In this document: piece by piece, positions 21,850 to 39,597 of the stretch | How the letters are laid out: every line of letters starts with the position of its first letter | Numbering within the stretch: position 1 is the first letter of the stretch | Sequence record: OQ031492 | DNA: 64,000 bases | Reading direction: 5' to 3' (one strand) | Origin: Escherichia phage MRostami-2023b | Made by a program: the position numbers and the translations under genes | Notes under the pieces: model-generated | What the model saw: only the letters and a program-made list of their open reading frames with translations | The model's database searches: none | What the model was told of the DNA's origin: nothing

Positions 21850-21861
21850 TTTGTTCTCCTG

Positions 21862-23085: not shown

Positions 23086-23092
23086 ACTTCAC

Positions 23093-23920: not shown

Positions 23921-24028
23921 AACAACATCTTTCTTAGGTTGAATATTATTGTTGTTAAATGGTATAACAATACGATGATAGTCACAACCGCTGTGAGGTT
24001 TTGCATCAATTTTAGTTTAGACCATTTT

Positions 24029-24712: not shown

Positions 24713-24720
24713 TTTCTCTC

Positions 24721-25284
24721 CTAAATAGTTTTACTGTGATCATGACAGTGTAATAAATGATGTATAGACCGTTGAGGATTTGTTTGACCTAATCTGTAAA
24801 TGTGAAACAGATACATTCCCCGCATCAATCCTAACCTCTTTCCTTTTTCATGTAAAGTGCGAGAGAAAATTAAGTCGAATTGGATAGATTTTTCTTCGAA
24901 AGGAATTTCATTCCACAATGATTTTCTAAAAAGCAAAAAGAAACCTGCCAGAGGTGTTCCGAAAGGAACTTCTTCAACACTTACTTTATGATATTCTCTT
25001 GCAATCTTAGCATATTCTATATGGTTTAGAATATCTGGATCATCGTTAATTTGGTTAGAGAAAAGCTGATAACCACTGCCTAACCTGTTACAAGTTGCAC
25101 CTATTACATCAAAAGGCGGGTTTGACATAACAAGCTCTTCAAGCATAGATGGTTGATCAGGTAGGAGGAACATTGTATCGGTATCTCTTAAACACACCCA
25201 ACTATCATCTGGAAGAACGGCAATGGCTTCATTGATAGCCTTGCCGATATTTCCTGTCAGATAGGGAGTAATATAATAAATCAT
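24721..25284 (-). CDS. Putative glycosyltransferase-like protein
   Basis: 187 aa; CLRDTDTMF DxD-like motif; weak. Confidence 0.3.
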   Translation of the reverse strand: MIYYITPYLTGNIGKAINEAIAVLPDDSWVCLRDTDTMFLLPDQPSMLEELVMSNPPFDVIGATCNRLGSGYQLFSNQINDDPDILNHIEYAKIAREYHKVSVEEVPFGTPLAGFFLLFRKSLWNEIPFEEKSIQFDLIFSRTLHEKGKRLGLMRGMYLFHIYRLGQTNPQRSIHHLLHCHDHSKTI

Positions 25285-25985: not shown

Positions 25986-26507
25986 TTAACTCCCCTTTGG
26001 TAGATAGAAACCATGCACTTTATCTCGATAAACAAGACGCATATCACGTTCCCAGTGTGTTCTTATATTCCGTTTCTTGAAGTATAGAGCACCTTTAGTA
26101 ACATCTAAAACAGACCGCAATTCAGGAAAATGTTTCTCTAAATAAAGTAAACGCTCCGCTATTGCTTTTGCTTCCTGCCACTTATCTTTCTCTGTTACGT
26201 TAAAAGTTTTCGCATATGAGAATTGCCCTTTCTGGAACAAGACTCCTCTGACTGTGTTAGGGAAGTAGGTATCATTTCTTCTGTTGATTACCACATTCCC
26301 AACGGCATTCATTCCTTTTTTACCCAGACCGCGACCTTCTGCGTAAATTGCACAAGCTAATAGAATTTTATCATTATATTGCTTTGTACATTTGTGAACT
26401 ACTTTAGCGGTTTTTACGTTTGCAGCTTCGGCTTTCGCCACAACAGGTGTAAATGTAAAAGCAGTTAAGGATAGTAACGCAACTGTTACAAAGTTTTTTA
26501 TCAGCAA
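25986..26507 (-). CDS. Secreted cell-wall hydrolase (SleB/Hydrolase_2-like), candidate endolysin
   Basis: N-terminal signal peptide (…PVVAKAEA); CAIYAEGRG…NAVGNVVINR…FPNTVRGVLFQKGQFS matches SleB-type motif. Confidence 0.65.
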   Translation of the reverse strand: MLIKNFVTVALLSLTAFTFTPVVAKAEAANVKTAKVVHKCTKQYNDKILLACAIYAEGRGLGKKGMNAVGNVVINRRNDTYFPNTVRGVLFQKGQFSYAKTFNVTEKDKWQEAKAIAERLLYLEKHFPELRSVLDVTKGALYFKKRNIRTHWERDMRLVYRDKVHGFYLPKGS

Positions 26508-26606: not shown

Positions 26607-27209
26607 TTACGGACATTCATACCATTCTTTTTTACCACCAAAGGCCATCACCACATCACAAATATCCAGACCAGCTTTACCTACACCATATGCTTTCAGC
26701 TTCCATTCCCCATCTTCACGAACCAAGGAAGCCACGTGGCAGATTGTGTTGCCAGCTACTTCAGGAGCCAGGAAGTCAAAATCCAGAATTTCCACATTGC
26801 GCTCGGAGTCGAAGATTTTAAGCATACCTTCAGAAGCATGACCAAAACGTTTCAGACCTGTATCATCATCAATGGTCAGAACAAAGGCAATCTCTTGTGC
26901 ATCAGGAGAGATTTTAGCCAGAGTAATATCAATCTGCTCCATGCTGCCAGTTCCATCACGAACATCGTCACCAGCGAAGGTAGAACGTTCAGGATCAAAC
27001 TTGTTAGCATAGCAAACCAGATGACGTGCAGACAGCATTTCAGGATTGCCAGCGGCATTGTGACGACAAACCAGTGCACTTACATCCAGATCTAGTTTAG
27101 AATCAGATTTCCAAGAGAATTCCAGGCGCAGTTCTTTCAGAGCCGGAGCAACTTTCTTCAGGGAAATTTTTTCGCTAGAGCCTTTTTTCAGGGAAATTTT
27201 ATCAGTCAT
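26607..27209 (-). CDS. TerD-domain protein
   Basis: 200 aa; N-terminus KISLKKGSSEKISLKK and GDDVRDGTGS Ca-binding-like motif typical of TerD/TerE family. Confidence 0.65.
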   Translation of the reverse strand: MTDKISLKKGSSEKISLKKVAPALKELRLEFSWKSDSKLDLDVSALVCRHNAAGNPEMLSARHLVCYANKFDPERSTFAGDDVRDGTGSMEQIDITLAKISPDAQEIAFVLTIDDDTGLKRFGHASEGMLKIFDSERNVEILDFDFLAPEVAGNTICHVASLVREDGEWKLKAYGVGKAGLDICDVVMAFGGKKEWYECP

Positions 27210-27224
27210 TTTTTGTCTCCTCTA

Positions 27225-27494
27225 TTATTTAAGTGTAATACCAGTTACAGTCAATTCTACTTCCAAAAGCTTAGATGTGTTTTGGATTGATACTAATTGT
27301 GCATGATGGTTTAGTTCTACAGCAGAATAATCATTTTCCCCATCATCTACTTTTAAATAAACAATGATTTCACTAAGGTCTAAACCATTTTCGTCAAATG
27401 CATTTTCATAGACGAAAGTATCTCCTACATCCAAATCTTTAATGGTAAGGCATCGTTTATTTACTTTTTGCTCATCAATTTCGAAGTTTAACAC
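27225..27494 (-). CDS. Hypothetical protein, paralogue of 28516-28794
   Basis: LDVGDTFVYENAFDENGLD…VELTVTGITLK parallels the other copy. Confidence 0.4.
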   Translation of the reverse strand: MLNFEIDEQKVNKRCLTIKDLDVGDTFVYENAFDENGLDLSEIIVYLKVDDGENDYSAVELNHHAQLVSIQNTSKLLEVELTVTGITLK

Positions 27495-27723
27495 TTCTTC
27501 CTCCTAATGTTATCTCCGGTTTGTATATACGAAGAATTATAGCATTTTCATTTTCTTTGTCAACCAATTCTTCATAATCAGGCCATACATGAATCTCTAC
27601 TCTACTTACAATATCTTCCATTCGCACAGTCCCAATGAAATACTCTTTGAGACTGCGCATAATGAAAGCTTCTCTCTCGCGCCAATAATTTTCTATGACT
27701 TGAGAGGCAAGCTCGTCGATCAT
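27475..27723 (-). CDS. Hypothetical protein
   Basis: 82 aa, translationally coupled. Confidence 0.35.
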   Translation of the reverse strand: MIDELASQVIENYWREREAFIMRSLKEYFIGTVRMEDIVSRVEIHVWPDYEELVDKENENAIILRIYKPEITLGGRSVKLRN

Positions 27724-28514
27724 TTTTTAGCACCTACTTTAACAACCCACTCTCCGAACTCTTCAGATAAGAGTTTGTCATAAAGCTCTGAATCTGTCAA
27801 GTCTAAATCTTTAATGCCAATAAAACCAACATTATCATAAGCATTTGCCAGTTCTTTCAGGAAGCCAAACTTCTCATTACCAACGCCAACCATGAACCAA
27901 TAAATAGGTTTATTCTTATTCTCTTCGATAAGACGACGAACAGCACTAGGATCACCATTCTCACCATCAGTCTGGAAGAATACAACACCAGGGGTAACGT
28001 CAGCACCTGGTTCAGATACAGCTACAACTTTTTCACGCTCTACAGACACTGTTTCAGTTTTACCAAGCAGACGATTAAAGAAGCCTTTCTTTGGAGCCTC
28101 CTCTTGTACCACTTGTTTAGTGGTAATATATTTAGTAACAGTGCCAAAATACTCATCGTAGATATCTGCCATTACAGGGGCGTAATTTGTTCCACCTCCG
28201 ATACGAACATTACGCATACATTTACCAACATAATCGTCGTAAACATTTGCTGTTGCTGGAGTAAGCTCTTGGGAACTCGTATTGAAGGCCCACATATCAA
28301 TTTGTTGATTATCGTCGAACAGCATACCAAAAGGAAGCAGTTTACCTACAAAATCACTCACTACCCCACTAGAATATAGACCATGCATACTACCAGAAAT
28401 ATCTAGAGCACATGCTACACGAAGAACAATCTTACCTTCATTCAGGTTCTTATTCTTTTTCAGAGAGAAAGCAAGGTTTTCTTGACGTTTTTTCAGGCTG
28501 ATTTTCTCGGACAT
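27720..28514 (-). CDS. von Willebrand factor A (vWA) domain protein with TerD-like N-terminal motif
   Basis: MIDAS motif DISGSM; N-terminus MSEKISLKK. Confidence 0.6.
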   Translation of the reverse strand: MSEKISLKKRQENLAFSLKKNKNLNEGKIVLRVACALDISGSMHGLYSSGVVSDFVGKLLPFGMLFDDNQQIDMWAFNTSSQELTPATANVYDDYVGKCMRNVRIGGGTNYAPVMADIYDEYFGTVTKYITTKQVVQEEAPKKGFFNRLLGKTETVSVEREKVVAVSEPGADVTPGVVFFQTDGENGDPSAVRRLIEENKNKPIYWFMVGVGNEKFGFLKELANAYDNVGFIGIKDLDLTDSELYDKLLSEEFGEWVVKVGAKK

Positions 28515-28515
28515 A

Positions 28516-28794
28516 TTATTTCTCCTTCTTAAGTGTAATATTGGTAACTTCTAAATCTACTTCCACCATATTTGTATCTGGTGGGATGCAATGAGTATAG
28601 CCTCGTTGTGCTAGTGATCCATTAATACAAATCGCACTGTTTGTGGAATTTTTAATGAACACCAAGTTACGGTAGGTATCCAACCCTGCGTCTTCATAGG
28701 CATCATAATACATGAATGTGGCCCCTACGTCAAGATCTTCGAAAGCAATAGGTAAATCCTGACTTTTTTCTTCTTGAATATTGAATCTAAACAC
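28516..28794 (-). CDS. Hypothetical protein, paralogue of 27225-27494 (GTG start)
   Basis: Start re-set to GTG after gaggagg RBS giving M-FRFNIQEE… matching MLNFEIDEQ… of paralogue. Confidence 0.4.
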   Translation of the reverse strand: MFRFNIQEEKSQDLPIAFEDLDVGATFMYYDAYEDAGLDTYRNLVFIKNSTNSAICINGSLAQRGYTHCIPPDTNMVEVDLEVTNITLKKEK

Positions 28795-29350
28795 ACATAC
28801 CTCCTCTACCAATTTTGAAGCCCAAATCGTAAGCTTCCTTAGTGATCTTTTGTAACTCACTTATAGGAAGTGTTACAAGAGGATCATCTTCTTCAATTTC
28901 CATCTTGTCATCTTCTGTTTCAATGAGAGTATTATGCACTTTGTGATAAGGGTTGTCAACACGTTTAAACTTATTCTTTTCTGTGCTGAAAAAACAATCT
29001 GGATCTTCTTCACCATCACCCCAACCTTGGTTAGGATCTCCGTCAGATTGTTCTGTAGGGATTTCACCTGTAAAGTACTCTTCCAGCACCATAGCGATAC
29101 CGTCCCTTGGATTTGAGGAATGCATCAAATCACAAACCTTACTCCAATCCATAGCCCATTCAAATCGTTCACGAACACCATTTTCATCCTCCTTTCCAGA
29201 GAAAACACAACCATAACTATCATAGTTGCCATACATCTCTTCAATAACAACACCATCCTTCAAAAGAAAGAGGTAGCAAGGCGATCCGTCGAAAGAAGTA
29301 GAAAGGGCAGCTTTGCCCGATTCTTTGCACAAAAAACTAAAACAACCCAT
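28787..29350 (-). CDS. Hypothetical acidic protein
   Basis: 187 aa ORF. Confidence 0.4.
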   Translation of the reverse strand: MGCFSFLCKESGKAALSTSFDGSPCYLFLLKDGVVIEEMYGNYDSYGCVFSGKEDENGVRERFEWAMDWSKVCDLMHSSNPRDGIAMVLEEYFTGEIPTEQSDGDPNQGWGDGEEDPDCFFSTEKNKFKRVDNPYHKVHNTLIETEDDKMEIEEDDPLVTLPISELQKITKEAYDLGFKIGRGGMCV

Positions 29351-29544
29351 TACAAACCCTCCTTCAGATTATCAAGAGCTACAGTGGTTTCACAAAATTC
29401 TCCATAAGCTTTATGATGTTCCAGAAAAGCTTCGGGTCCACCCCAGTCATTATCTTGTGTATTCCAGCCATCAATAAAAGCATCTTCAATGATTGTGATC
29501 AGTTCTTGTCGAGTCAACTGGANNNNNNNNNNNNNNNNNNNGTA

Positions 29545-29718
29545 TTATACATCTTCTTCCTCCTCTAAGATATGGAACCCGTAATTACAATAATCCTGAA
29601 AGGTTTCGTGTGCAAGATCTTCTATATCTTCTTGAGACATATCATCTTCAATTTCGATATCTACAACCTCATTGCATCCACACCAAGCAGTTTCAATATT
29701 CACTCGTAATATTTTCAT
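29545..29718 (-). CDS. Hypothetical small acidic protein
   Basis: 57 aa, RBS ggaggagg, ATG; not in ORF table (<60 aa). Confidence 0.35.
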   Translation of the reverse strand: MKILRVNIETAWCGCNEVVDIEIEDDMSQEDIEDLAHETFQDYCNYGFHILEEEEDV

Positions 29719-29915
29719 TACTCCTCCTCCTCATTGAAGTCAATATCTGCAAGGAGTTCGAATTTACGGAAGTTACGACAACCTTCATAAATATAACAAT
29801 CACGACAAACTGCTAGAACACTTGGGGGATATATGCCTCCCATCGGTGCGAATCGTTTTTCGTCATCATAACGGACACCAATGTCTTCATCAATTATATA
29901 GATACGGATTCTCAT
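29718..29915 (-). CDS. Hypothetical small protein
   Basis: 65 aa, overlaps neighbours by 1-4 nt. Confidence 0.35.
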   Translation of the reverse strand: MRIRIYIIDEDIGVRYDDEKRFAPMGGIYPPSVLAVCRDCYIYEGCRNFRKFELLADIDFNEEEE

Positions 29916-31024
29916 TTACCAAGCCCTCGTTTCACAGCAGCTACCATCCCGTCTTCCAGAGATTGAACTTCATTAATATAATCAACACGAGCAGCACGGG
30001 CTTCCGTATTGATGCGGTTAGTTTCTTCCAACATCTTAACCAAGTTTTCCTGATCGTGACGCAGAGTTTCAATATCCAACACTTGACGGTTAGCCAGTGC
30101 TGCTGCTTCGATCTGATTCTGTGTGGCAAGATCGCTACCCAGTTTAATTGCCAGGTTAAATTCATCAAGAACGTTATTCTGCGTCTCTGCTGCTTTCATT
30201 TGACGTAAGCTCTCGATATACATTGAGAAGTTAGCAGAGTAAGCAGGAATAACATTATTTACTATGTTACGCGCAGATCGCATTAAGCTTGCAGAAACTT
30301 TTTGCATACCTTGTACACGCGGTCCCATTTGGACACACAGTAGGCGCAATGCTTTTAAATCTGCAATACGAATCTCCAGAAGATCCAAAGTATCTCGGAT
30401 CACTTGTCGCTGTTCTACTGCATCTTCTGGAAGAGCAGCCAAAGCTTGTTCTTCTTTTTCATAGGTTGCTGTTAGAAGCTGCATATCTCGGTTCAAACTT
30501 GCAGCATATTGTCCAATAGCTTGATGTAGCTTTTCAAGATATACCAAGGAATCTTCTTCTTTGCGAATATCCATTTGAAGGTTCTTTACCAACTCTTCAA
30601 TACGGTTATTAACATTATCAAACTCCCCAAACAGATCTTCTTTCATACCCATAACTTTTTTAATGAGTTTAGTAATACCCTTGCTTTGTTTAATAGAGTT
30701 TGGATCAAGTTGTTTTGCCTGTTTAATCAAAGCTGTGAGTCGTTCACTCATCTGATCGCCTTGATTACTACGTTGATGTTTTAATACCTCGGCATTCAAG
30801 GAACGCAAGGTTGTTCCTGCCTCTGCCCCAATCTCTTCAATCTCTTGTCGGGTCATAGAAGGCAAAACTGGAACTTCTTGCGGTGCCGCTGGTGCATAAA
30901 CAGGACTGGCATCTAACACGCTTGGAGCGAATACAGATTTACTTGCATCGGTTGTTGCAGCAAATACGCTCATTTCAGGCTTCTTCTGACCACCAGTAGC
31001 TGCTTTTAAAAATGGACTTGTCAT
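29912..31024 (-). CDS. TelA-like (toxic anion resistance / KlaA family) protein
   Basis: 370 aa, alpha-helical composition; size and Ter-gene context; by-eye only. Confidence 0.4.
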   Translation of the reverse strand: MTSPFLKAATGGQKKPEMSVFAATTDASKSVFAPSVLDASPVYAPAAPQEVPVLPSMTRQEIEEIGAEAGTTLRSLNAEVLKHQRSNQGDQMSERLTALIKQAKQLDPNSIKQSKGITKLIKKVMGMKEDLFGEFDNVNNRIEELVKNLQMDIRKEEDSLVYLEKLHQAIGQYAASLNRDMQLLTATYEKEEQALAALPEDAVEQRQVIRDTLDLLEIRIADLKALRLLCVQMGPRVQGMQKVSASLMRSARNIVNNVIPAYSANFSMYIESLRQMKAAETQNNVLDEFNLAIKLGSDLATQNQIEAAALANRQVLDIETLRHDQENLVKMLEETNRINTEARAARVDYINEVQSLEDGMVAAVKRGLGK

Positions 31025-31611
31025 TCTTCATTCTCCTCTTCTGCATCTCTTATATATGGTGAAACACCGTACTCTTTAGCTACTTTAACCCAATCGTCCC
31101 ATTTATACAACCATAATTTTCCTTCGGTCCCTTCTTTATCTGATTTCAACCACATATTAGGTTGCTTACCTGGGTGCATGCGATTAGGTTTACGATTATA
31201 ACCTCTAACACATCTTGTCGCAAACCTATCTACCAGAACAAGAACATATTTATATTCGTGGTTCAACGGCTCTTTGGAAGTGGCTTTAGGATTAGCCCCT
31301 AATTCTGCTGCCAGTTTTTGCCAATGAGCACCGTGCCTACTAAACTTACCCATACAACCATCAATAGCATGAGCAATTTCGTGCTTCATTGTATCCACGA
31401 TCATATCTCTTGTGGAGTTCTTATGCAAGTGCCAATTTACAACAACAATTTTATCTCGGTAGTTGCACCAACCGAAAGAGTTATTCACTTTGTTTCTAAC
31501 ACAAGCTTTATATCCTGCTTCACGTAACATGTTGTAGTAAACAGGAAAATCTTCTTTTATTTCCTGCATCACTTCCCACCACAAGAGTTGCAAGTCTCTC
31601 TCGGTATACAT
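31021..31611 (-). CDS. SprT-like zinc metalloprotease domain protein
   Basis: HEIAHAI (HExxH) followed by SRHGAHWQKLAAELG as in SprT-like domains. Confidence 0.55.
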   Translation of the reverse strand: MYTERDLQLLWWEVMQEIKEDFPVYYNMLREAGYKACVRNKVNNSFGWCNYRDKIVVVNWHLHKNSTRDMIVDTMKHEIAHAIDGCMGKFSRHGAHWQKLAAELGANPKATSKEPLNHEYKYVLVLVDRFATRCVRGYNRKPNRMHPGKQPNMWLKSDKEGTEGKLWLYKWDDWVKVAKEYGVSPYIRDAEEENEE

Positions 31612-31614
31612 AAC

Positions 31615-32208
31615 TTACACCTTAAAAGTGAAATGCGTGGTCGTGGCTTCAAAATCAGGGCCAGATAAACGTGCACTGAAATCTGAAATATTTGTAATTA
31701 AAAAGCTTTTATGCATACCTAACACAGCCACGCTTTCAATATCTTCTACTAACATTTCAATCATGTTAGAAACATGGCTGAACGTAGAGTTTTGTTTTTT
31801 GATGGTGTAGAAAGAAAGATTCCCACCTGCTGTATAAGATACCTCTTCAAAATCTTTAATCGTATATTGTGTACCATCAGTAAAGAAAATGGTAGCTTTA
31901 TTAGTAGCACGTTTCTTGTTTTTTGGTCCTTTTTTACGTTTACTGCGAGTAGGCAAACCGTTTGGGAACACCGTAGCTACAAATTCTTCAGGGGAAACCT
32001 CCTTACCGAAATCATAATCGTAAGAAACAGCGTCTATACACTCGTCGTCTTCATTTTTAAAATAATGAAAATAGGGCCAATTTGAGAGATTATCGAGCAT
32101 CTTATGCGCATCCACAACAGAGAACGTATCCCTCAAAGCACGTGTGATTTGCAAAGCATTAGGCAAACTTTTAACACCTGTAATGGAAGTACGAATAGAA
32201 ATTGTCAT
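31615..32208 (-). CDS. Hypothetical protein
   Basis: 197 aa ORF. Confidence 0.4.
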   Translation of the reverse strand: MTISIRTSITGVKSLPNALQITRALRDTFSVVDAHKMLDNLSNWPYFHYFKNEDDECIDAVSYDYDFGKEVSPEEFVATVFPNGLPTRSKRKKGPKNKKRATNKATIFFTDGTQYTIKDFEEVSYTAGGNLSFYTIKKQNSTFSHVSNMIEMLVEDIESVAVLGMHKSFLITNISDFSARLSGPDFEATTTHFTFKV

Positions 32209-32222
32209 TGTTTTTCTCCTTA

Positions 32223-32660
32223 TTAACGTCGCTTGCTACGAGATGAACTCTTTTTACTTAAAGGGCTATTGTAAGATTTACGAGTTGTATAGCTACTATT
32301 TGTTTTAAAAGTTTGTCTCGGCTTTTCATAAGTTTTTATCTCTTGTTTAGGCTTACCATAAAAATTAGTTTTCGGTTTAGGTGTATTATAATGCTTATTA
32401 ATAATCGTTCTGTTATCGTTATAATCCCCACTGCTACGATTACTACCACCACTCATCATATGCCCTAACAACATACCTGTAGCAAACTCACCAACACCGC
32501 TACTACTAGAACCGCCACCATTGTTGATAATAGTTGTATCTCCGTCAGATCCTTGTTGAGCGTATTGTTGAGGAGGTTGTTGGTATTGTGCAGGATTTGT
32601 TTCATCCTCGCAAGCTGTTAAAAAGATACAACCAATTAAAATCAGGGCTAGTTTTTTCAT
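32223..32660 (-). CDS. Lipoprotein
   Basis: Start at MKKLALILIGCIFLTAC (lipobox LTAC) after RBS aggaaa; Gly/Ser-rich. Confidence 0.5.
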   Translation of the reverse strand: MKKLALILIGCIFLTACEDETNPAQYQQPPQQYAQQGSDGDTTIINNGGGSSSSGVGEFATGMLLGHMMSGGSNRSSGDYNDNRTIINKHYNTPKPKTNFYGKPKQEIKTYEKPRQTFKTNSSYTTRKSYNSPLSKKSSSRSKRR

Positions 32661-32847
32661 ATTTGCTTTCCTCATTTTGACTATTAATACATCTGTGTTT
32701 GAAATCTCCAGAGAAGCAATAAAGTTGCTCTCCATCTCGGTATAAACTCACTTTACTGCCGTTGATTACGCTTGTCAATACAAAAATTACAACAAACAAC
32801 CCTATTGCAAAACAAATATTTTCAAACACAACCAACAAGTATTTCAT
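32602..32847 (-). CDS. Putative small membrane protein (overlaps lipoprotein start)
   Basis: 81 aa, hydrophobic segment, RBS gaggt. Confidence 0.3.
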   Translation of the reverse strand: MKYLLVVFENICFAIGLFVVIFVLTSVINGSKVSLYRDGEQLYCFSGDFKHRCINSQNEESKYEKTSPDFNWLYLFNSLRG

Positions 32848-33194
32848 TTTAAAAATACCTCATCATCAGTCTCATTATCCCAGAAGAACAAATCCCAACC
32901 ATTCGGATCATTCCATTTGGCTGCTGGAGAAGTCCATATTTGTTCGATATCAATATTCAAAACTTCACCGTTTCGTTTTGAAACAGCTTTAGTTAATTCC
33001 CAACGAGATACAGGCTCTACTTCCCCTGAACCACTCCCACAACAAGCTACCACGTTAGGAGGCAAATTAATTGGATCTTTGGTCACGATCATAACGCTTA
33101 CCCCAGGGTAAACTTTTGAAAGATAATCTAAAACGTAATCCACATCACCAGATAAATCCCAAACAAGTTCTTGAATTTCATCAAAATTATTCAT
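32844..33194 (-). CDS. Hypothetical acidic protein
   Basis: 116 aa ORF. Confidence 0.4.
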   Translation of the reverse strand: MNNFDEIQELVWDLSGDVDYVLDYLSKVYPGVSVMIVTKDPINLPPNVVACCGSGSGEVEPVSRWELTKAVSKRNGEVLNIDIEQIWTSPAAKWNDPNGWDLFFWDNETDDEVFLK

Positions 33195-33212
33195 AAGTCT
33201 CTCCTATAAAAT

Positions 33213-33230
33213 AGCCTCCCGAAGGAGGCT
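33213..33230 (-). terminator. Hairpin (terminator-like) after TerC
   Basis: agcctcc-cgaa-ggaggct; U-rich on minus strand. Confidence 0.45.
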
Positions 33231-33236
33231 CATCTA

Positions 33237-34211
33237 TTAAACAGCAGCTTCTTCTTTTTCAGGGAAGATAAAGCTTGCAATAACACCAAGAGCTAATGTG
33301 CCTAGAACAATCATCAGGCTTACGTTAGGGGAAATATCATGCGGGAGGAATGACCACTTGGCATGAAGTGTTTCACCGAACGGGTGATACATAAGTTTAG
33401 CACCAACAAACACCAGAACCACAGCAACAGCTTTCTCTAAGTGAACCAGATATTTCACAGCTACACTTAACACAAAGAAAAGTGCACGTAAACCAAGAAC
33501 AGCCATCAGCATTGCAGAATAAACTAGCAGAGGTTCTTGTGTCACACCGATCACAGCCGGAACTGAATCAAAAGAGAAGACAATATCTGTAAGCTCAATA
33601 ACAAACACACAAAGAATAGCAGGAGTTGCATATTTAATACCATTCTTAATGGTGATGAACTTTTCACCATCCAGTGCATTGTGCACAGGCAGAACTTTAC
33701 CTACTAAACGAACAGCCCAATGCTTAGAGTAATCAATATCCTCTTCTTCGTCACCACCTTTGATGATAGCCACGGCAGACCAAGCTACAATCAAACCGAA
33801 CAACACTTGGACCGACCAATGAAGGTTAAACAAAGCGGTCCCTGCTGCAACAAAAATACCTCGGAAGACAATGGCTCCTGCAATCCCCCAAAGTAAAATC
33901 TTATGTTGGAGATGTGTGCTCTTAATTCCAAAGCTTGCAAAAATTGCCATGAACACCATCAGGTTATCTACAGAAAGACTCTTTTCCAACACATAGCCAC
34001 TTAGGAAAAGCGCGGCAAACTCTTTACCATGTTCTACCCAAATGAATGCGTAATATCCTAAAGCTAAAGCAATCCAAAAAACAGACCAAAGCAAAGCAGA
34101 TTTAATTCCAATTTCTTTATTCTCTTTGTGACCAAAGAAATCAATACCAATAGACAATGCTAAAATACCAACTAAAACAACTACATCAATAATTGGGAAA
34201 CCAAGTTGCAT
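33237..34211 (-). CDS. TerC-family integral membrane protein
   Basis: 324 aa multi-TM protein with EKSLSVDN signature typical of TerC/Alx family. Confidence 0.7.
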   Translation of the reverse strand: MQLGFPIIDVVVLVGILALSIGIDFFGHKENKEIGIKSALLWSVFWIALALGYYAFIWVEHGKEFAALFLSGYVLEKSLSVDNLMVFMAIFASFGIKSTHLQHKILLWGIAGAIVFRGIFVAAGTALFNLHWSVQVLFGLIVAWSAVAIIKGGDEEEDIDYSKHWAVRLVGKVLPVHNALDGEKFITIKNGIKYATPAILCVFVIELTDIVFSFDSVPAVIGVTQEPLLVYSAMLMAVLGLRALFFVLSVAVKYLVHLEKAVAVVLVFVGAKLMYHPFGETLHAKWSFLPHDISPNVSLMIVLGTLALGVIASFIFPEKEEAAV

Positions 34212-34228
34212 TCTTTTCTCCTCTCTTT

Positions 34229-34288
34229 GCGGGGAACTATTCCCCGCTTCATGTGATATATCTTACTCTTTTTAAGAACTATGTCAAC
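34229..34288 (-). promoter_or_regulatory. Promoter plus leader hairpin of the same class as the 55.8-62.4 kb array, upstream of TerC
   Basis: Minus strand reads TTGACA-N17-TAAGAT-atatcac-…GCGGGGAAtagTTCCCCGC then RBS and ATG. Confidence 0.5.
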
Positions 34289-34290
34289 AC

Positions 34291-34512
34291 TTATTTTGTT
34301 GAATGAGAGGAAAAGATTCCTCGTAATACAGCCAGAATAAACGAAACACAAACCACGGTCCAGAAGGTTACTGGGACAGTGATATCTGCATGACCCATAA
34401 CTTCAGCAACATAGTTGTAAGCCAGCAACAGTAACCAAGCTGGAATCAAACTAAGCATAAAAGCAATAACAAAAAAGCTTACCACTGCAACAATACCTGC
34501 AAAAACACCCAT
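34291..34512 (-). CDS. Small membrane protein
   Basis: 73 aa, two hydrophobic helices. Confidence 0.4.
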   Translation of the reverse strand: MGVFAGIVAVVSFFVIAFMLSLIPAWLLLLAYNYVAEVMGHADITVPVTFWTVVCVSFILAVLRGIFSSHSTK

Positions 34513-34524
34513 ACTAATCTCCTC

Positions 34525-34998
34525 TTAAAGTTTATAAATAGTCACATCGTGACCTGTTTTTACTAAAGTTTCTTCAATCATCACTTGGATGATAGCCCAA
34601 TTACCTCCAGCATATCCAGCGCCAATCATAGGTAAGCCGATCTTACATTTTTGGTCACGGAGAAGCAAATCGTTAGCCATAGCTATTAGTGCATCGTAAA
34701 GTGCATCATAGTCCAACTGACGACCTTTAGCATTGTATCCGTAACGGTATTGCCCGTATAGATTATATACCAAAGGGTCTGATTGTTCGTCTGGCACCCC
34801 TAAACTAAAACAACCTAGTTTACTTTGATCACCAGCCATTGTGTCTAAGTCTGCTGCATATGCGTAAGGAAATGCTTGTTTGATTTGTGGGGCAATACCT
34901 GCCCCCATATTACACATACAGTTGCAACAATGAGCAATAACAGTTACTTCACCTGCTTTAGCGGCATCAATAAGATTACCTGTTTTCATTTTAAGCAT
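34525..34998 (-). CDS. Macro-domain (ADP-ribose binding/processing) protein
   Basis: Start set at MLKMKTG after RBS; VIAHCCNCMCNMGAGIA…LPMIGAGYAGGNW pattern. Confidence 0.55.
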   Translation of the reverse strand: MLKMKTGNLIDAAKAGEVTVIAHCCNCMCNMGAGIAPQIKQAFPYAYAADLDTMAGDQSKLGCFSLGVPDEQSDPLVYNLYGQYRYGYNAKGRQLDYDALYDALIAMANDLLLRDQKCKIGLPMIGAGYAGGNWAIIQVMIEETLVKTGHDVTIYKL

Positions 34999-35011
34999 TT
35001 TTAGCTCCTTA

Positions 35012-35839
35012 TTACAGAATGTGTTGTTTTGTGTAACGATCCAAGAATTCAAAGTTTTCAGCATACTTTGAAATTCGGTTGTAACCTTCTCCCAAGCATC
35101 CAAAGAAAAGTTGCTCTACATAGTAATGTGGCAATTGGCTAAGAATGATTTTGAAGTCTTCATGATTTTGGCCCATAAGATACTTAATAGGACGAACAAG
35201 ACACTGTGCATCACGTTCTTCATTAATCATTTTAACAAACGCTTCTGGTGTATTAATGTAGTTAAAATTCAGTTTAGCTTCGGTATCTGCTTGATTACCT
35301 TCGTATTTTGCAAAATACAAGAAGTAAACATCATTTTTAACTTGATTTTCATCAAGGATCTCAATCAGTTTGTCTTCATGCGTTCCAGTGATATTTACAT
35401 CATCAATGAATACAAGCTTCTTATCACCCCAGAATTCTTTGTTGCAGTAGAATGTATCCCCATCAATAAGTTTCTTACGACTAGCTTTATCCAAGAAGCC
35501 ATAATCGTTAATATAGCTAACTTTACGATGAATAATATCCAGTTCTGCTGAACGACCTTGATCATATTGTGCTTGCAACATATTAAAGTAATTAATAAAA
35601 TGATCTGTCATCATTGTTGCAGCATTATGCACATGGTTGTAAGGAGAAGGAATGATAACAAATTGTTCCCCAATATGTTTCATTGCCACTTGAGCAAAAA
35701 ACTGAAGTGCCAATTCTTTACCCATACGACGCGCGGCTTGGTTACTACCAAATTTCAATTTTGAATAATCTTGGATATCAAAAGTAGCAGTTTCCAGGTC
35801 ATCAAATTTATTTGCAAAAATTTGAGTTTGATTACGCAT
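35012..35839 (-). CDS. Type I phosphoribosyltransferase-like protein
   Basis: PRPP-binding motif KLVFIDDVNITGTHE. Confidence 0.5.
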   Translation of the reverse strand: MRNQTQIFANKFDDLETATFDIQDYSKLKFGSNQAARRMGKELALQFFAQVAMKHIGEQFVIIPSPYNHVHNAATMMTDHFINYFNMLQAQYDQGRSAELDIIHRKVSYINDYGFLDKASRKKLIDGDTFYCNKEFWGDKKLVFIDDVNITGTHEDKLIEILDENQVKNDVYFLYFAKYEGNQADTEAKLNFNYINTPEAFVKMINEERDAQCLVRPIKYLMGQNHEDFKIILSQLPHYYVEQLFFGCLGEGYNRISKYAENFEFLDRYTKQHIL

Positions 35840-36488
35840 TTACAATTTCTCCTCTTTTAAGTTTCTCTAGTAAGTCGTTAGGGTTCTTAATATGACAGAA
35901 GTTAAATCCTAAGTCAACACATTTTCCATCATATTCTTCACTATCGCCTACGTGCAACACTTCGTGCCCTAACAGAGGGATCGGAGAATACGTGAGCGTG
36001 CGAGCAAAGAATCGCGGATCTGGTTTACAAAGTAAAGCTTCATCCGAGAAATGGGTGAACTCAAAACAATTCCAACTATCAAACTTACAAGCACGACGCA
36101 GGATATCCCCTGATATGAAGTTGGTATTGCTCTTAATACTCAAATCATAACGCCCCGAAAGATACAGCAAGTACATCGGTAGATCCACAGCTACATGAGG
36201 TGGAAACTTAAGGAACCATTGTTCACACTCGAAACGNNNNNNNNNNNNNNNNNNNNNNNNNNNNNNNNNNNNNNNNNNNNNNNNNNNNNNNNNNNNNNNN
36301 NNNNNNNNNNNNNNNNNNNNNNNNNNNNNNNNNNNNNNNNNNNNNNNNNNNNNNNNNNNNNNNNNNNNNNNNNNNNNNNNNNNNNNNNNNNNNNNNNNNN
36401 NNNNNNNNNNNNNNNNNNNNNNNNNNNNNNNNNNNTTTGCAGTGATCAGTGTGTTCCATACATCAAAAGAGATATGTTTAATAGTCAT
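35832..36488 (-). CDS. HAD-superfamily hydrolase-like protein (interior masked by N)
   Basis: N-terminal ISFDVWNTLI (motif I-like), later KPDP and GDS; 199 N inside. Confidence 0.4.
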   Translation of the reverse strand: MTIKHISFDVWNTLITAXXXXXXXXXXXXXXXXXXXXXXXXXXXXXXXXXXXXXXXXXXXXXXXXXXXXXXXXXXXXXXXXXXXRFECEQWFLKFPPHVAVDLPMYLLYLSGRYDLSIKSNTNFISGDILRRACKFDSWNCFEFTHFSDEALLCKPDPRFFARTLTYSPIPLLGHEVLHVGDSEEYDGKCVDLGFNFCHIKNPNDLLEKLKRGEIVNA

Positions 36489-36489
36489 A

Positions 36490-37095
36490 TTAAGCCCACC
36501 ATGCGTCTAAGTTAAGATTACTGTCCACTACCACTTGTTCTATGTGGTAGCCTTTTATCTGTATCCCACTGTTCAAGAGCATATCATACGCTTCATTGAA
36601 ACGCAACTTATCTTCTGCGGAATATAAGCGAGCATTATAAAATCGGTAATCAACTTCTTCAGCATTAGAAGAAATACGGAAGAAGTTTGTTTCTACTTCG
36701 GGATCACTTGCTGAAGTCTTAATGTGAACTTCTCCGTAATTTTCTTTACTTAGATCCATGAAAAGAACACAGGCAACATGTTTAAACATTCGTTCCAGTT
36801 TGTAACGAACAACATTGAAACCTGCATTCTCAAGTTTTTCTACACACTGCAACATTAAAGTAGTGTCGAGATCGCTTTGATATTTTGTTAACATACGATC
36901 ACGTTGAGACTTTGTATCCCGATGTAAATCAATTGTTGTGCATTTGGCACCAATAATCTTAGCTGCTTTCATCAACTCTCCAGAACTAACGTTAGATAAA
37001 GTAAGATGAAAATGGGCTTTCCACACTTTTTTAGCAGGGACACCAAAAGATTTATCCCCACTATTCGGCATGTTGACTACTACACTATGTTGCAT
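36490..37095 (-). CDS. Hypothetical protein (weak H-x-T-x motif)
   Basis: 201 aa; HFHLTL motif; weak. Confidence 0.35.
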   Translation of the reverse strand: MQHSVVVNMPNSGDKSFGVPAKKVWKAHFHLTLSNVSSGELMKAAKIIGAKCTTIDLHRDTKSQRDRMLTKYQSDLDTTLMLQCVEKLENAGFNVVRYKLERMFKHVACVLFMDLSKENYGEVHIKTSASDPEVETNFFRISSNAEEVDYRFYNARLYSAEDKLRFNEAYDMLLNSGIQIKGYHIEQVVVDSNLNLDAWWA

Positions 37096-37335: not shown

Positions 37336-37786
37336 TTGCCGTTTTGGTCCATAATCTTTGATTATCTGACCCTCTGAAAGGTTTTGTAGTTGGATTGTTT
37401 ATTTCATACTTTCCGTCTACAATAATGTCAACAAGATTTTTAATATACAAAGGCACTTCCTCAAAAGTATATCCTGTATACACCATTATATCTTTGCTTG
37501 ACCCATAAACGTCTCTAACCTTTTCTATAAGGTTTTTAACATTGTAAATATTCTGCGGATCTAATGGCTCTCCTCCTAAAATTGTTAAACCTTTTACAAA
37601 CGGTCTTGACAAATCTTTTAAAACTTGCTCTACATTTTCGTGAGTAAACGGTTTCCCATAAGAATAAGACCAGGCTTTTTGGTTAAAACAGCCACGACAA
37701 CCGTGGCTACAACCACTAACCCAGAGGGAGCACCTAACTCCCTCACCATTAATAAGATCTACAGGTTCGTATCCTGCAAAATTCAA
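37316..37786 (-). CDS. nrdG: Anaerobic ribonucleotide reductase activating protein (radical SAM)
   Basis: CSHGCRGCFN (CxxxCxxC) motif; overlaps nrdD stop. Confidence 0.8.
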   Translation of the reverse strand: MNFAGYEPVDLINGEGVRCSLWVSGCSHGCRGCFNQKAWSYSYGKPFTHENVEQVLKDLSRPFVKGLTILGGEPLDPQNIYNVKNLIEKVRDVYGSSKDIMVYTGYTFEEVPLYIKNLVDIIVDGKYEINNPTTKPFRGSDNQRLWTKTASGWQSD

Positions 37787-39597
37787 AAATGTTTCTCCCT
37801 TTGCAAAACTTCCTGCATTTTACCTTTGTTATAAGGCCGTGAATTAGGGGCAGAAAGATACCCTGATACACGTCTAACTACAGAAATAGTTTCTTCTTCA
37901 TGGTTGCCACAATCAGGACACTCAAACCCTTTAGCCGTTGCCTTAAATTCCCCATGAAAACCACACTTAAAGCATTGATCCACGGGCTGATTAATACCAA
38001 AATAGTGAATATGTTCATAAGCGTAGTCTACTAAAGTCTCCAAAGCTTCTAAGTTATTCTTTAAGTTTGGTGTTTCGACATAACTTATGTTACCACCATT
38101 ACTAATCTGTGCAAAACCTGCTTCATAATCCCATTTTTCAAAAGGGTTTGTTACCAACCACACAGGTTGATGAAAAGAGTTAGTAAGATAGTCTCTTTCT
38201 ACCAAACCTGGGTATTTTTCATTTAAAGCTGTTGCAAACTTATAGCACAAAGATTCTGCTGGAGTTCCATAGAGACTAAACGCCAAATTAGATCGTTCTT
38301 TAAACACAGCACACACATCTTTCATATGTTGCAGAATGTTTTTACCAAGTTCCTTTTTATCTTTTTCTTCTGGATAAAGGATTTCCAAAGCTTCGGCAAG
38401 ACCTACATAACCAATACTAATAGAAGCATAACCACCTTCAAACAAAACACCAATTTCATCGTTGGCATTTAAACGCGCTAAAGCCCCTTCCATGAAAAGA
38501 ATAGGGTTTTCAGATGCTTTGGTATGTCTGATACGGTTTACACGTAGCATGTGAGCATCGTAGGCTATCTCCATATGTTTATTAAGAAGATCGGTGAAAG
38601 ATTCTCCTTTACTTCTCGCTTCCGCAGCGATCAGAGGTAAGTTGATAGAAACTACTCCAAGGTTGAATCGTCCATCGTATTTTTCTCCTTGTTCTGTGAC
38701 ATAGTACGACAAAAAGGAACGACAACCCATACTCGTAACAGTGCCATCTGCTGATCCCGTAACTTCTTTGTTCAAAGGAACAGAAATAAAATCTGGATAA
38801 ATACGATCAGCACAACATGCCAAAGCTTGTTGCTTAAGGTCATAGTTAGGATCACTAGGTTTCATGTTAACACCTTCTTGTAAAAAGAAAATAACTTTAG
38901 GGAATACAGGCGTTACATGATCTTTGCCTAGACCATTACTATGCACTTTAAGATAGTTAGCTGTGATCATTCTGCCAAAAACAGAGGTATCCAGACCCAT
39001 ACTGATTGTAATAAAAGGAGATTGTCCATTAACACTCATTAAAGTATTAACCTGATACAAGAGAGTTTGCATAGCATCATATACATCTTGTTCGGTCATT
39101 TTTAGGGCTTCTTTCCTTGCATAACAACCGTAGCGACGTTTGGTTATCTCCATGTTTTTAAGGAAACTAGCTTCAACATAAGGACTAAGACCTTTATCAA
39201 TGTGCGCACACGTCTGACCTCCATACTGACTGGAGGCAACAGCTTGGATGATTTGAGTTAGCACTGTGGTAGCTACTCCAATAGATTTTGGTTTTTCTAT
39301 CTGTGCGGCACCGATTTTAAAACCATTTTCTAACATATCTTGATAATTAACAAGACAACAGTTTGTAAGAGGAGAGAGCAGATAATCCAAGTCGTGAATA
39401 TGTCCAAAACCTTCTGTATGCCACTCTGACAAGTTTTTTGGCAGTATCTGTGTCATTGCCATATGTTTGCTTAAAATCCCCGCCAAGAGATCCCTATGCG
39501 TGTTAACGAGGTGGGAAGGTTTGTTTGCATTCTCTCTAGTGTATGTTTCTGAAGTACGATCTAAAAAAGAAAAAACATCTTGGTACAAATCTTTCAT
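37783..39597 (-). CDS. nrdD: Anaerobic ribonucleoside-triphosphate reductase
   Basis: 604 aa; C-terminal Zn ribbon CFKCG…CPDCG and glycyl-radical motif RRVSGYL. Confidence 0.9.
   Translation of the reverse strand: MKDLYQDVFSFLDRTSETYTRENANKPSHLVNTHRDLLAGILSKHMAMTQILPKNLSEWHTEGFGHIHDLDYLLSPLTNCCLVNYQDMLENGFKIGAAQIEKPKSIGVATTVLTQIIQAVASSQYGGQTCAHIDKGLSPYVEASFLKNMEITKRRYGCYARKEALKMTEQDVYDAMQTLLYQVNTLMSVNGQSPFITISMGLDTSVFGRMITANYLKVHSNGLGKDHVTPVFPKVIFFLQEGVNMKPSDPNYDLKQQALACCADRIYPDFISVPLNKEVTGSADGTVTSMGCRSFLSYYVTEQGEKYDGRFNLGVVSINLPLIAAEARSKGESFTDLLNKHMEIAYDAHMLRVNRIRHTKASENPILFMEGALARLNANDEIGVLFEGGYASISIGYVGLAEALEILYPEEKDKKELGKNILQHMKDVCAVFKERSNLAFSLYGTPAESLCYKFATALNEKYPGLVERDYLTNSFHQPVWLVTNPFEKWDYEAGFAQISNGGNISYVETPNLKNNLEALETLVDYAYEHIHYFGINQPVDQCFKCGFHGEFKATAKGFECPDCGNHEEETISVVRRVSGYLSAPNSRPYNKGKMQEVLQREKHF

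What the first reader, a model, noticed from the sequence alone, without database searches (positions are those of the whole stretch)
26607..36488. Ter-like stress/metabolite module carried inside a virulent phage replication region
Ten kb of tightly coupled minus-strand genes encode a TerD-domain protein, a vWA protein with a TerD-like N-terminus, a TelA-like protein, a SprT-like metalloprotease, a TerC membrane protein, a macro-domain protein, a type I phosphoribosyltransferase and a HAD-like hydrolase, interleaved with small paralogous ORFs. Bacterial Ter loci are known to pair TerD/TerC/TelA/vWA with phosphoribosyltransferase and HAD enzymes that are predicted to make a nucleoside-like metabolite. 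Finding that whole set in a phage next to nrdDG and the polymerase is not a standard phage module; it could serve host takeover, nucleotide or DNA modification, or counter-defence.
Basis: partly seen in the sequence, partly recalled or inferred. Interest (0 to 1): 0.85.

Follow-up and report, generated by a model that had tools for sequence, protein, structure and literature searches.

The report
Known phage-borne Ter stress-response module
The region is a real, compact copy of the bacterial "Ter" stress and phage-resistance gene set carried by a virulent E. coli phage, but the same block is present and partly annotated in more than 100 sequenced relatives and has been described in the literature, so what stays open is its function, not its existence.

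Summary
HMM, PDB and structure searches confirm TerD, a TerF-type vWA protein, TelA, SprT-like, TerC (Alx subfamily), a TARG1/DarG-like macro domain, a ComF-like type I phosphoribosyltransferase (PRTase_3) and a HAD-fold hydrolase. All lie on the minus strand between nrdDG and a SleB-like lysin.

The window is a Phapecoctavirus (phAPEC8-like). The block is 97-99.7% identical in over 60 deposited genomes and conserved in phi92-like phages. phi92 already carries annotations for the tellurium-resistance, stress, PRTase and hydrolase genes. Iyer, Anantharaman and Aravind (2021) described phage Ter systems with PRTase plus HAD and proposed superinfection exclusion.

The conserved core is HAD-PRTase_3, TerC, TelA, vWA and TerD. 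The same set recurs in distant phage contigs and in an actinobacterial Ter cluster. SprT-like, the macro domain, the 187-aa ORF and ORF 36490-37095 are unrelated or lineage-specific passengers. Only one pair of small ORFs is paralogous, and the "TerD-like N-terminus" of the vWA protein is not significant.

One point I did not see mentioned in the papers I could read: the HAD partner always has Trp in place of the second catalytic Asp.

Verdict: real and coherent, function untested, not novel.

The parts
35832..36488 (-). HAD-fold hydrolase, the obligate upstream partner of PRTase_3. It overlaps PRTase_3 by 8 nt. Motif I reads D-x-W-x-T. The gene is partly N-masked in the window (36237-36435).
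   Evidence: A HAD gene directly precedes PRTase_3 in 20 of 21 genome loci and in all phage contigs examined.
35012..35839 (-). Type I phosphoribosyltransferase of the PRTase_3 (ComF-like) family. The PRPP loop VFIDDVNITGTHE is invariant.
34525..34998 (-). Macro domain of the TARG1/DarG/SCO6735 type (157 aa from the ATG at 34998). It is a conserved neighbour within the subfamily but is not Ter-specific.
   Evidence: The phAPEC8 annotation note says it is shared with rV5, PVP-SE1 and FelixO1.
34291..34512 (-). 73-aa hydrophobic, probably membrane, protein. Conserved in phi92 at 60% identity.
34260..34287 (-). Sigma70-like promoter for terC (TTGACA-16-TAAGAT). The leader to the ATG is about 45 nt and contains a hairpin. 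No Mn riboswitch is present.
   Evidence: The phAPEC8 and ASO2A records annotate a host-type promoter at this position.
33237..34211 (-). TerC/Alx-subfamily integral membrane protein, a metal (Mn2+) export or metalation family.
   Evidence: Pfam 5e-40 and TIGR03718 at 319 bits against a cutoff of 246.
33213..33230 (-). Intrinsic terminator-like hairpin directly after terC.
32223..32660 (-). Predicted lipoprotein with signal peptide and lipobox LTAC. Conserved in phi92, where the homologue gp180 carries a signal peptide.
   Evidence: Sequence. EF1-1 gene model..
32602..32847 (-). 81-aa hydrophobic small protein. Conserved in phi92 at 49% identity.
29912..31024 (-). TelA-family protein.
   Evidence: Pfam 3e-33. 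PHROG 5890 'tellurite resistance' 1.5e-139.
28516..28860 (-). Small ORF (114 aa as listed) directly upstream of the vWA gene. It is a paralogue of 27225-27494 and is conserved in phi92.
27720..28514 (-). vWA protein of the TerF C-terminal type. MIDAS residues are intact. It carries a ~45-aa lineage-specific insert.
   Evidence: Pfam 1e-37. Alignment.
27225..27494 (-). Small 89-aa ORF upstream of TerD, a paralogue of 28516-28860. No separate copy was found in phi92, where the only match lies under the sp114 homologue. A 12/12 sigma70 consensus promoter sits at 27563-27536.
26607..27209 (-). TerD-domain protein. The Ca2+-binding loop is partly degenerate: GDDVRD--GTGSME against the canonical GDNRTGEGDGDDE.
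31021..31611 (-). SprT-like zincin (HEIAH). It is an insertion specific to Phapecoctavirus, absent from phi92, and not part of the conserved module.
28787..29350 (-). 187-aa protein. Its N-terminal ~135 aa is a widespread, highly conserved phage domain with no family assignment. It is not Ter-linked.

Best explanation
This is the phage version of the bacterial Ter system, fixed in the Stephanstirmvirinae (phAPEC8-like and phi92-like myoviruses).

Shown:
- It has two arms.
- The envelope arm contains a TerC/Alx-type metal-transporting membrane protein, a TerD beta-sandwich, TelA and a MIDAS-competent TerF-type vWA protein. It is interleaved with a lipoprotein and two small hydrophobic proteins.
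- The soluble arm is a translationally coupled HAD-PRTase_3 pair.

Inferred:
- The genes are read early from host-type sigma70 promoters.
- PRTase_3 couples PRPP to an unknown base or nucleophile, and the atypical HAD processes the product, giving a nucleoside-like small molecule.
- TerD, TelA and vWA assemble at the inner face of the membrane with TerC.
- Together they alter envelope and ion properties of the infected cell so that superinfecting phages, and pore-forming colicins, are excluded while the resident phage completes its cycle. This is the function proposed for phage Ter systems by Iyer et al. 2021.

I put about 0.95 on the module being a true Ter-system homologue. I put about 0.4 on the exclusion or conflict function specifically. 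The confidence below is for the combined statement.
For: - Domain identities.
- The same six families cluster in distant phage contigs: L002 (26 kb), L003 (a 350-kb jumbo contig) and L031 (198 kb).
- They also cluster in a Pedococcus chromosome and near TerD or TerC in Bacteroidales MAGs.
- The block is conserved between two genera: TerD 81%, TelA 79%, TerC 71%, vWA 66%, PRTase 65%, HAD 49%.
- No TerD hits fell in the identity range expected for Vequintavirinae, which suggests one acquisition that was then retained.
- Host-type promoters precede terC, sp89-TerD and sp114-vWA.
- A lipoprotein and small membrane proteins are conserved inside the block.
- Literature: the plasmid ter cluster gives phage inhibition and colicin resistance (Whelan 1995, as cited). 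The phage Ter exclusion hypothesis is in PMC7824862. The TerC family exports or delivers Mn2+ (PMC10197570 and PMC10550928).
Against: - There is no experimental datum for any phage Ter gene.
- None of TerD, vWA, TelA, TerC or PRTase_3 matches a PADLOC defence model.
- The HAD-PRTase_3 pair also occurs without Ter genes nearby, so the two arms are separable. Examples are Rhizobium phages, where it sits next to NMNAT/Nudix; rhizobial genomes, where it sits next to a ClpP-like gene; and T4-like contigs, where it sits next to DUF2828/DUF7788 and RNA-repair genes.
- The TerD Ca2+ loop is degenerate here.
- The set lacks TerB, TerA/Z/E, ATP-grasp and C-C lyase components of full bacterial systems.
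- Promoter calls are consensus matches only. The count was 44 against 38 expected by shuffling.
Confidence: 0.4

Rival explanations
1. Housekeeping of the infected cell. The TerC/Alx-type protein, with TerD, TelA and vWA, keeps Mn2+/Ca2+ balance, metalation of exported proteins or membrane integrity stable during takeover. This sustains phage yield, and exclusion of competitors is not the selected function.
For: - TerC falls within the Alx subfamily above the curated cutoff.
- Alx is a Mn2+ exporter, and TerC proteins metalate exoenzymes (PMC10197570 and PMC10550928).
- terC has its own promoter and terminator, as if regulated separately.
- The module sits among nucleotide-metabolism genes, including nrdDG.
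Against: - This does not explain the conserved coupling to HAD-PRTase_3 in unrelated phages and bacteria.
- K-12 already has alx (own knowledge).
- The Mn riboswitch typical of alx and ykoY is absent.
Confidence: 0.25
2. Counter-defence island. The ribose-phosphate enzymes (PRTase_3, HAD, DarG-like macro domain, ORF 36490-37095) neutralise host immunity, for example by reversing DNA ADP-ribosylation by DarT or by consuming or mimicking nucleotide immune signals. The Ter membrane proteins would then be a separate matter.
For: - The macro domain matches DarG models and TARG1-class structures.
- ORF 36490-37095 matches two PADLOC 'AbiEi' antitoxin models at 7e-13, nearly full length.
- HAD-PRTase_3 travels without Ter genes in several phages, once next to an NMNAT/Nudix gene.
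Against: - HAD-PRTase_3 is also chromosomal in rhizobia and sits inside bacterial Ter clusters, which does not suit a phage-only anti-defence role.
- ORF 36490-37095 is missing from phi92.
Confidence: 0.15
3. Nucleotide or DNA modification. PRTase and HAD, with the four nearby glycosyltransferases, make a modified nucleoside for the phage genome.
For: - The module is located in the replication and nucleotide-metabolism arm next to nrdDG.
- Four glycosyltransferase genes lie at about 21.5-25.3 kb.
Against: - The BASEL study found Vequintavirinae and phi92-like relatives 'exceptionally susceptible' to restriction-modification systems (PMC8594841). phi92-like phages carry this same block.
- A PRTase makes ribo- rather than deoxyribonucleotides, and a phosphatase step would take the product out of the dNTP pool (established biochemistry).
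Confidence: 0.05

Closest known systems
Phage-encoded Ter systems described by Iyer, Anantharaman, Krishnan, Burroughs and Aravind 2021 (Viruses 13:63; Acinetobacter phage ME3, Caulobacter jumbo phages, 'certain other related smaller tailed phages')
   Same: The component list is the same: PRTase plus HAD biosynthetic enzymes, TerD, TerC, TelA and TerF-type vWA. Caulobacter and Brevundimonas jumbo phages and Xanthomonas XaC1 carry homologues of both this PRTase_3 and this TerD.
   Different: Here the genome is about 150 kb, not jumbo. The system is compact and contiguous at about 10 kb, has a single TerD with a degenerate metal loop, and has no TerB. In several jumbo phages the PRTase and TerD genes lie 28-165 kb apart.
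The same block in phAPEC8 (2012), phi92 (2012), ZCKP1, ESCO13 and BASEL Justusliebigvirus phages
   Same: Phapecoctavirus genomes are 97-99.7% identical at the DNA level. phi92 is gene-for-gene conserved. phi92 annotations already read 'membrane bound tellurium resistance protein', 'stress / toxic anion resistance protein', 'stress protein', 'orotate phosphoribosyltransferase', 'hydrolase' and 'phosphatase'. The ZCKP1 paper notes four tellurite-resistance genes.
   Different: Nothing of substance. phi92 lacks SprT-like, ORF 36490-37095 and a few small ORFs.
Bacterial Ter clusters with a biosynthetic module (Anantharaman, Iyer and Aravind 2012; here exemplified by Pedococcus sp. KACC 23699)
   Same: TelA, TerD, TerC, vWA-TerF, HAD and PRTase_3 lie in one co-directional run. 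The HAD carries the same D-x-W-x-T motif.
   Different: The bacterial cluster has four TerD paralogues and two PRTase_3 genes, and its TerC is of the DUF475 type. The phage has one of each, and its TerC is of the Alx type. The 2012 paper could not be read here, so what I say about it rests on citing papers and on my own knowledge.
terZABCDEF operon of IncHI2 plasmid R478 and E. coli O157 (tellurite, colicin and phage resistance)
   Same: It shares the TerC, TerD and TerF-type vWA families. The reported phenotypes, phage inhibition and colicin resistance, are the basis of the functional inference.
   Different: No TerB, TerA, TerZ or TerE was found in the 20 ORFs scanned. TelA belongs to a different operon (telAB/klaAB) in that literature. 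As noted for phiPsa374, such partial sets are unlikely to give tellurite resistance as such.
B. subtilis yceCDEFGH envelope-stress operon (TerD paralogues, TerC/MeeF, TelA-like YceH)
   Same: It combines TerD, TerC and TelA without TerB. The TerC member has a shown role in Mn delivery (PMC10550928). The operon composition is from my own knowledge.
   Different: It has no vWA and no HAD-PRTase pair. It is chromosomal and stress-sigma regulated.

Membership tests
Ter stress-response system (Aravind-group definition) | TerD-domain protein | tested here: met
   PF02342 at 3e-28, and full-length alignment to PDB 2kxt at 1.5e-15.
Ter stress-response system (Aravind-group definition) | TerC-family membrane protein | tested here: met
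   PF03741 at 5e-40. TIGR03718 scores 319 bits, above the 246-bit cutoff.
Ter stress-response system (Aravind-group definition) | TelA and a TerF/TerY-type vWA protein with MIDAS | tested here: met
   PF05816 at 3e-33 and PF10138 at 1e-37. DxSGS, T and D are conserved.
Ter stress-response system (Aravind-group definition) | Linked PRTase plus HAD biosynthetic genes | tested here: met
   PRTase_3 at 8e-42, with the HAD gene overlapping it by 8 nt. The same linkage occurs in bacterial and phage Ter loci.
Ter stress-response system (Aravind-group definition) | Metal-binding TerD loop (GDNxTGEGxGDDE) | tested here: inconclusive
   The loop reads GDDVRD--GTGSME. It has a two-residue deletion and the DD pair is replaced by SM, while other acidic positions are kept.
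Ter stress-response system (Aravind-group definition) | Confers resistance to phages, colicins or tellurite | not testable with these tools
   Needs plating and MIC assays.
Classical terZABCDEF operon | TerB plus multiple TerD paralogues (TerZ/A/D/E) | tested here: not met
   Pfam scans of 20 ORFs in 26.6-37.1 kb found one TerD and no TerB.
Type I phosphoribosyltransferase (PRTase_3 / ComF-like) | PRPP-binding loop and PRTase fold | tested here: met
Type I phosphoribosyltransferase (PRTase_3 / ComF-like) | Catalytic activity and acceptor substrate | not testable with these tools
   No solved or characterised close relative exists. The best PDB sequence hit has E 0.21.
HAD phosphatase | Motif I DxDx(T/V) with the Asp+2 general acid/base | tested here: not met
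   Motif I is SFD-x-W-x-TL, with invariant Trp at Asp+2 in 15 phage and bacterial homologues.
HAD superfamily (fold level) | Nucleophile Asp and motifs II (S/T), III (K) and IV (GDxxxD) | tested here: met
   All are present and conserved. PDB 2om6 at 8e-5 and NCBIfam HAD-IA hits support the fold. The Pfam score is below cutoff, 21.3 against 26.4.
Macro domain, TARG1/DarG class | Sequence membership | tested here: met
   PDB 5e3b 3.5e-12, TARG1 3e-6, DarG macro domain 5m31 1e-5 and PADLOC DarG 4e-10. Pfam Macro scores 21.8 against a cutoff of 22.
Known anti-phage defence systems (PADLOC 2.0, including TerY-P) | Match of the Ter or PRTase proteins to a defence-system model | tested here: not met
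   TerD, vWA, TelA, TerC and PRTase_3 gave no hit at E <= 0.01.

The most novel reading that the evidence does not exclude
The invariant HAD(D-x-W-x-T)-PRTase_3 pair makes a previously uncharacterised ribosylated small molecule in infected cells. This molecule acts as a signal or effector for the TerD, vWA, TelA and TerC envelope complex. Because the pair also travels alone, it may act on other targets as well. If so, this genetically tractable virulent coliphage would give the first handle on the long-unsolved chemistry and mechanism of Ter systems.
Probability: 0.25. Interest if true: 0.7.

Novelty: already known. Interest (0 to 1): 0.3.

Why it matters
How Ter systems work has been unclear since the 1990s. 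No product of the predicted PRTase-HAD pathway has been identified, and no role is known for the TerD, TelA, vWA and TerC proteins in phage exclusion.

A compact, single-copy version sits in easily grown virulent E. coli phages. These include phAPEC8-like and phi92-like phages, and some are members of the BASEL collection. This makes a practical experimental entry point for knock-outs, heterologous expression and metabolomics.

That practical value is the main reason to care. The presence of the module in this window is not news.

Tried and rejected

2. I looked for a Mn (yybP-ykoY) riboswitch upstream of the Alx-type terC. Rfam found nothing in the whole window, and the leader is only about 45 nt.

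3. I tested the 'TerD-like N-terminus' of the vWA protein. BLASTP gives E 0.2-0.9 over about 20-29 residues.

4. I tested whether the 187-aa ORF, 76% conserved with phi92, is a hidden Ter component. Its N-terminal domain is widespread in phage replication regions without Ter genes.

5. I considered a role in DNA hypermodification. It is disfavoured by the reported extreme restriction sensitivity of these phages.

6. SprT-like as part of the module: it is absent from phi92.

7. The Anantharaman 2012 Ter paper could not be retrieved by DOI, PMC id or PubMed id.

8. The afdb50 fold library was unavailable.

9. Literature searches found no functional study of a phage Ter gene.

Full report
**What the window is**

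Region 26607-36488 is 99.7% identical to Escherichia phage PNJ1809-36 and 98.6% identical to phAPEC8. It is 97% or more identical to about 60 further records. The window therefore comes from a Phapecoctavirus (Stephanstirmvirinae), a virulent myovirus of about 150 kb.

In phAPEC8 the surrounding minus-strand arm runs as follows: DNA polymerase, Dam-like methylase, primase/helicase, four glycosyltransferase-like genes, SleB-like hydrolase, the block in question, nrdG, nrdD and a UvrD-type helicase. nrdDG is directly adjacent to the block. The polymerase lies about 8-10 kb beyond its other end.

**Checking the observation**

Pfam supports five of the domains firmly:
- TerD, 3e-28
- vWA-TerF-like, 1e-37
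- TelA, 3e-33
- TerC, 5e-40
- PRTase_3, 8e-42

SprT-like is clear at 4e-9 and has an HEIAH motif. The macro domain sits just under the Pfam cutoff. It is confirmed by PDB macrodomains (5e3b 3.5e-12, TARG1 3e-6, the DarG macro domain 5m31 1e-5) and by DarG models in PADLOC and NCBIfam.

The HAD gene is partly N-masked in the window (36237-36435). I read it from the near-identical phage EF1-1. Its Pfam hit is weak (4e-4), but it also hits PDB 2om6 at 8e-5 and NCBIfam HAD-IA models, and all four HAD motifs are present.

All genes lie on the minus strand, with gaps of -74 to +79 nt.

**Corrections to the description**

- Only one pair of small ORFs is paralogous: 27225-27494 and 28516-28860, E 3e-13. 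One sits upstream of TerD and the other upstream of vWA.
- The 'TerD-like N-terminus' of the vWA protein is a ~20-residue KISLKK motif with no statistical support.
- The block is not a single operon. terC is bracketed by a sigma70-like promoter (34287-34260) and a terminator-like hairpin (33230-33213). Both are also annotated in relatives.
- Consensus promoters precede sp89-TerD (12 of 12 matches) and sp114-vWA (11 of 12). These are pattern matches, not proof of function.

**What belongs to the module**

Comparison with phi92 (Justusliebigvirus) shows which genes are conserved: HAD, PRTase_3, macro, a 73-aa hydrophobic protein, TerC, an 81-aa hydrophobic protein, a lipoprotein, part of the 197-aa ORF, TelA, sp55, the 187-aa ORF, sp114, vWA and TerD. 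phi92 lacks SprT-like, ORF 36490-37095 and several small ORFs.

Distant phage contigs again place HAD-PRTase_3 beside TerD, TerC, vWA-TerF and usually TelA. These are a 26-kb contig, a 350-kb jumbo contig and a 198-kb contig, with the PRTase about 47-48% identical.

A scan of one genome per bacterial species found 21 loci. A HAD gene directly precedes PRTase_3 in 20 of the 21. In Pedococcus the run is TelA, TerD, TerD, TerC/DUF475, vWA-TerF, TerD-like, TerD, HAD, PRTase_3, PRTase_3. Bacteroidales MAGs have the pair near TerD or TerC.

The conserved core is therefore HAD-PRTase_3 plus TerC, TelA, vWA and TerD.

The two arms are separable. The HAD-PRTase_3 pair occurs without Ter genes nearby in these settings:
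- rhizobial genomes, next to a ClpP-like gene
- Rhizobium phages, next to an NMNAT/Nudix gene
- two T4-like contigs, next to DUF2828/DUF7788 and RNA-repair genes

The N-terminal domain of the 187-aa ORF is widespread in unrelated phage replication regions and is not Ter-linked. By the phAPEC8 annotation, the macro domain is shared with rV5, PVP-SE1 and FelixO1.

No TerD hits fell in the identity range expected for Vequintavirinae. This suggests the module was acquired by the Stephanstirmvirinae lineage.

**Details that bear on mechanism**

- The vWA protein keeps a full MIDAS site in phage and bacterial members.
- The TerD of this subfamily has a partly degenerate metal loop, whereas other phage TerDs keep the canonical one.
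- In every homologue of the HAD partner, motif I is D-x-W-x-T. The nucleophile Asp is kept, and the Asp+2 general acid/base of HAD phosphatases is replaced by an invariant Trp. Motifs II-IV are kept. From general HAD enzymology (own knowledge), loss of Asp+2 is seen in haloacid dehalogenases, phosphonatase and P-type ATPases. 'Simple nucleotide phosphatase' may therefore be too quick an assignment.
- No PADLOC defence model matches TerD, vWA, TelA, TerC or PRTase_3.
- No Rfam family, including the Mn riboswitch usual for alx and ykoY genes, is present.

**Most likely function**

Shown: this is a two-arm Ter system, an envelope arm and a small-molecule arm, retained under selection in two phage genera and recurrent in other phages.

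Inferred:
- The genes are expressed early from host-type promoters.
- PRTase_3 and the HAD synthesise a ribosylated small molecule.
- TerD, TelA, vWA and TerC form a membrane-associated complex.
- The use is protecting the infected cell against superinfecting phages and pore-forming colicins.

The last inference rests on the phage-inhibition and colicin-resistance phenotypes of plasmid ter clusters (as cited). It also rests on the proposal of Iyer et al. 2021 for phage Ter systems, and on the conserved lipoprotein and small membrane proteins inside the block.

Rivals:
- Metal and envelope homeostasis for phage productivity. TerC/Alx family members export or deliver Mn2+.
- A counter-defence role for the ribose-phosphate enzymes. 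The macro domain is DarG-like, and ORF 36490-37095 matches PADLOC AbiEi models.
- Nucleotide or DNA modification. This is disfavoured because phi92-like phages with the same block are reported as exceptionally sensitive to restriction systems.

**Novelty**

The block is in more than 100 deposited genomes. phi92 and phAPEC8, both from 2012, already label the TerC, TelA or stress, PRTase, hydrolase and phosphatase genes. Newer records label nearly all of them. Papers on ZCKP1, phiPsa374 and phiKp34 comment on Ter genes in virulent phages. Iyer et al. 2021 describe phage Ter systems with PRTase and HAD, explicitly including 'certain other related smaller tailed phages'.

The finding is real but already known. 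The mechanism remains untested, and I found no functional study.

The only points I did not see mentioned in the papers I could read are the invariant D-x-W-x-T motif of the HAD partner and the strict HAD-PRTase_3 adjacency with or without Ter genes. I could not read the 2012 Ter paper to check this.

Noticed in passing
window 36490-37095 (-): This 201-aa ORF is coupled to the HAD gene by a 1-nt gap. It is conserved in Phapecoctavirus-like contigs but absent from phi92. It has many invariant polar residues (H28, H30, T32, TTID 53-56, DRMLTKY 66-72, RFYN 151-154). It matches two PADLOC 'AbiEi' models at about 1e-12 over nearly full length, has no Pfam hit, and its AF2 model is a duplicated ferredoxin-like fold with no convincing PDB neighbour. 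It could be an enzyme or an antitoxin-like protein.
   Followed up: partly
window 35832-36488 (-) and homologues in L002-L025: The HAD hydrolase paired with PRTase_3 always has Trp at the Asp+2 position of motif I (SFD-x-W-x-TL). It is therefore not a canonical HAD phosphatase.
   Followed up: partly
window 34525-34998 (-): The macro domain belongs to the TARG1/DarG/SCO6735 class. A phage-encoded homologue of the DarG antitoxin domain could reverse DarT ADP-ribosylation of phage DNA. The ORF list gives a longer 192-aa TTG-start version that overlaps the PRTase gene. Relatives annotate the 157-aa form.
   Followed up: partly
window 28787-29350 (-): The N-terminal ~135 aa of this 187-aa protein is a very widespread phage domain. 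More than 300 clusters are typically 50-65% identical, including marine metagenomes. It has no Pfam family and is found in replication regions of unrelated phages.
   Followed up: partly
L030 6152-7555; L032 9967-11562: In two T4-like metagenomic contigs the HAD-PRTase_3 pair sits next to a DUF2828/DUF7788 protein and RNA-repair genes (Rnl1/Rnl2-type ligases, 2H-SAK, CCA-adding enzyme) rather than Ter genes. In Ensifer it is followed by a ClpP-like gene, and in Rhizobium phages by an NMNAT/Nudix gene.
   Followed up: no
window ~21500-25284 (-): Four consecutive glycosyltransferase-like genes lie between the primase/helicase and the SleB-like hydrolase. Two of them, 24029-24712 and 24721-25284, are visible in the ORF list. 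The BASEL paper mentions a putative dTDP glycosylation machinery in phi92-like phages that nevertheless gives no restriction protection.
   Followed up: no
window 25986-26507 (-): A SleB-like cell-wall hydrolase with an N-terminal signal-like hydrophobic segment lies directly downstream of TerD. Relatives annotate it as the endolysin.
   Followed up: no
window 15373-61825, 11 N-runs (e.g. 16266-16986, 36237-36435, 52283-53191): The window contains masked stretches of 9-909 N. One removes 66 codons of the HAD gene, and another (29523-29541) lies between two small ORFs. ORF lists across these stretches are unreliable.
   Followed up: yes
and one search hit tables: Records named Campylobacter phage B15/C3 and Acinetobacter phage vB_AbaM_ABPW7 are 98-99% identical to E. 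coli Phapecoctavirus or Justusliebigvirus genomes. The host labels are probably wrong, or the samples were contaminated.
   Followed up: no
L028 6218-8296 (phi92): In phi92 nrdD is annotated as split (joined CDS, spliced variant). In this window nrdD (37783-39597) is one uninterrupted 604-aa ORF.
   Followed up: no
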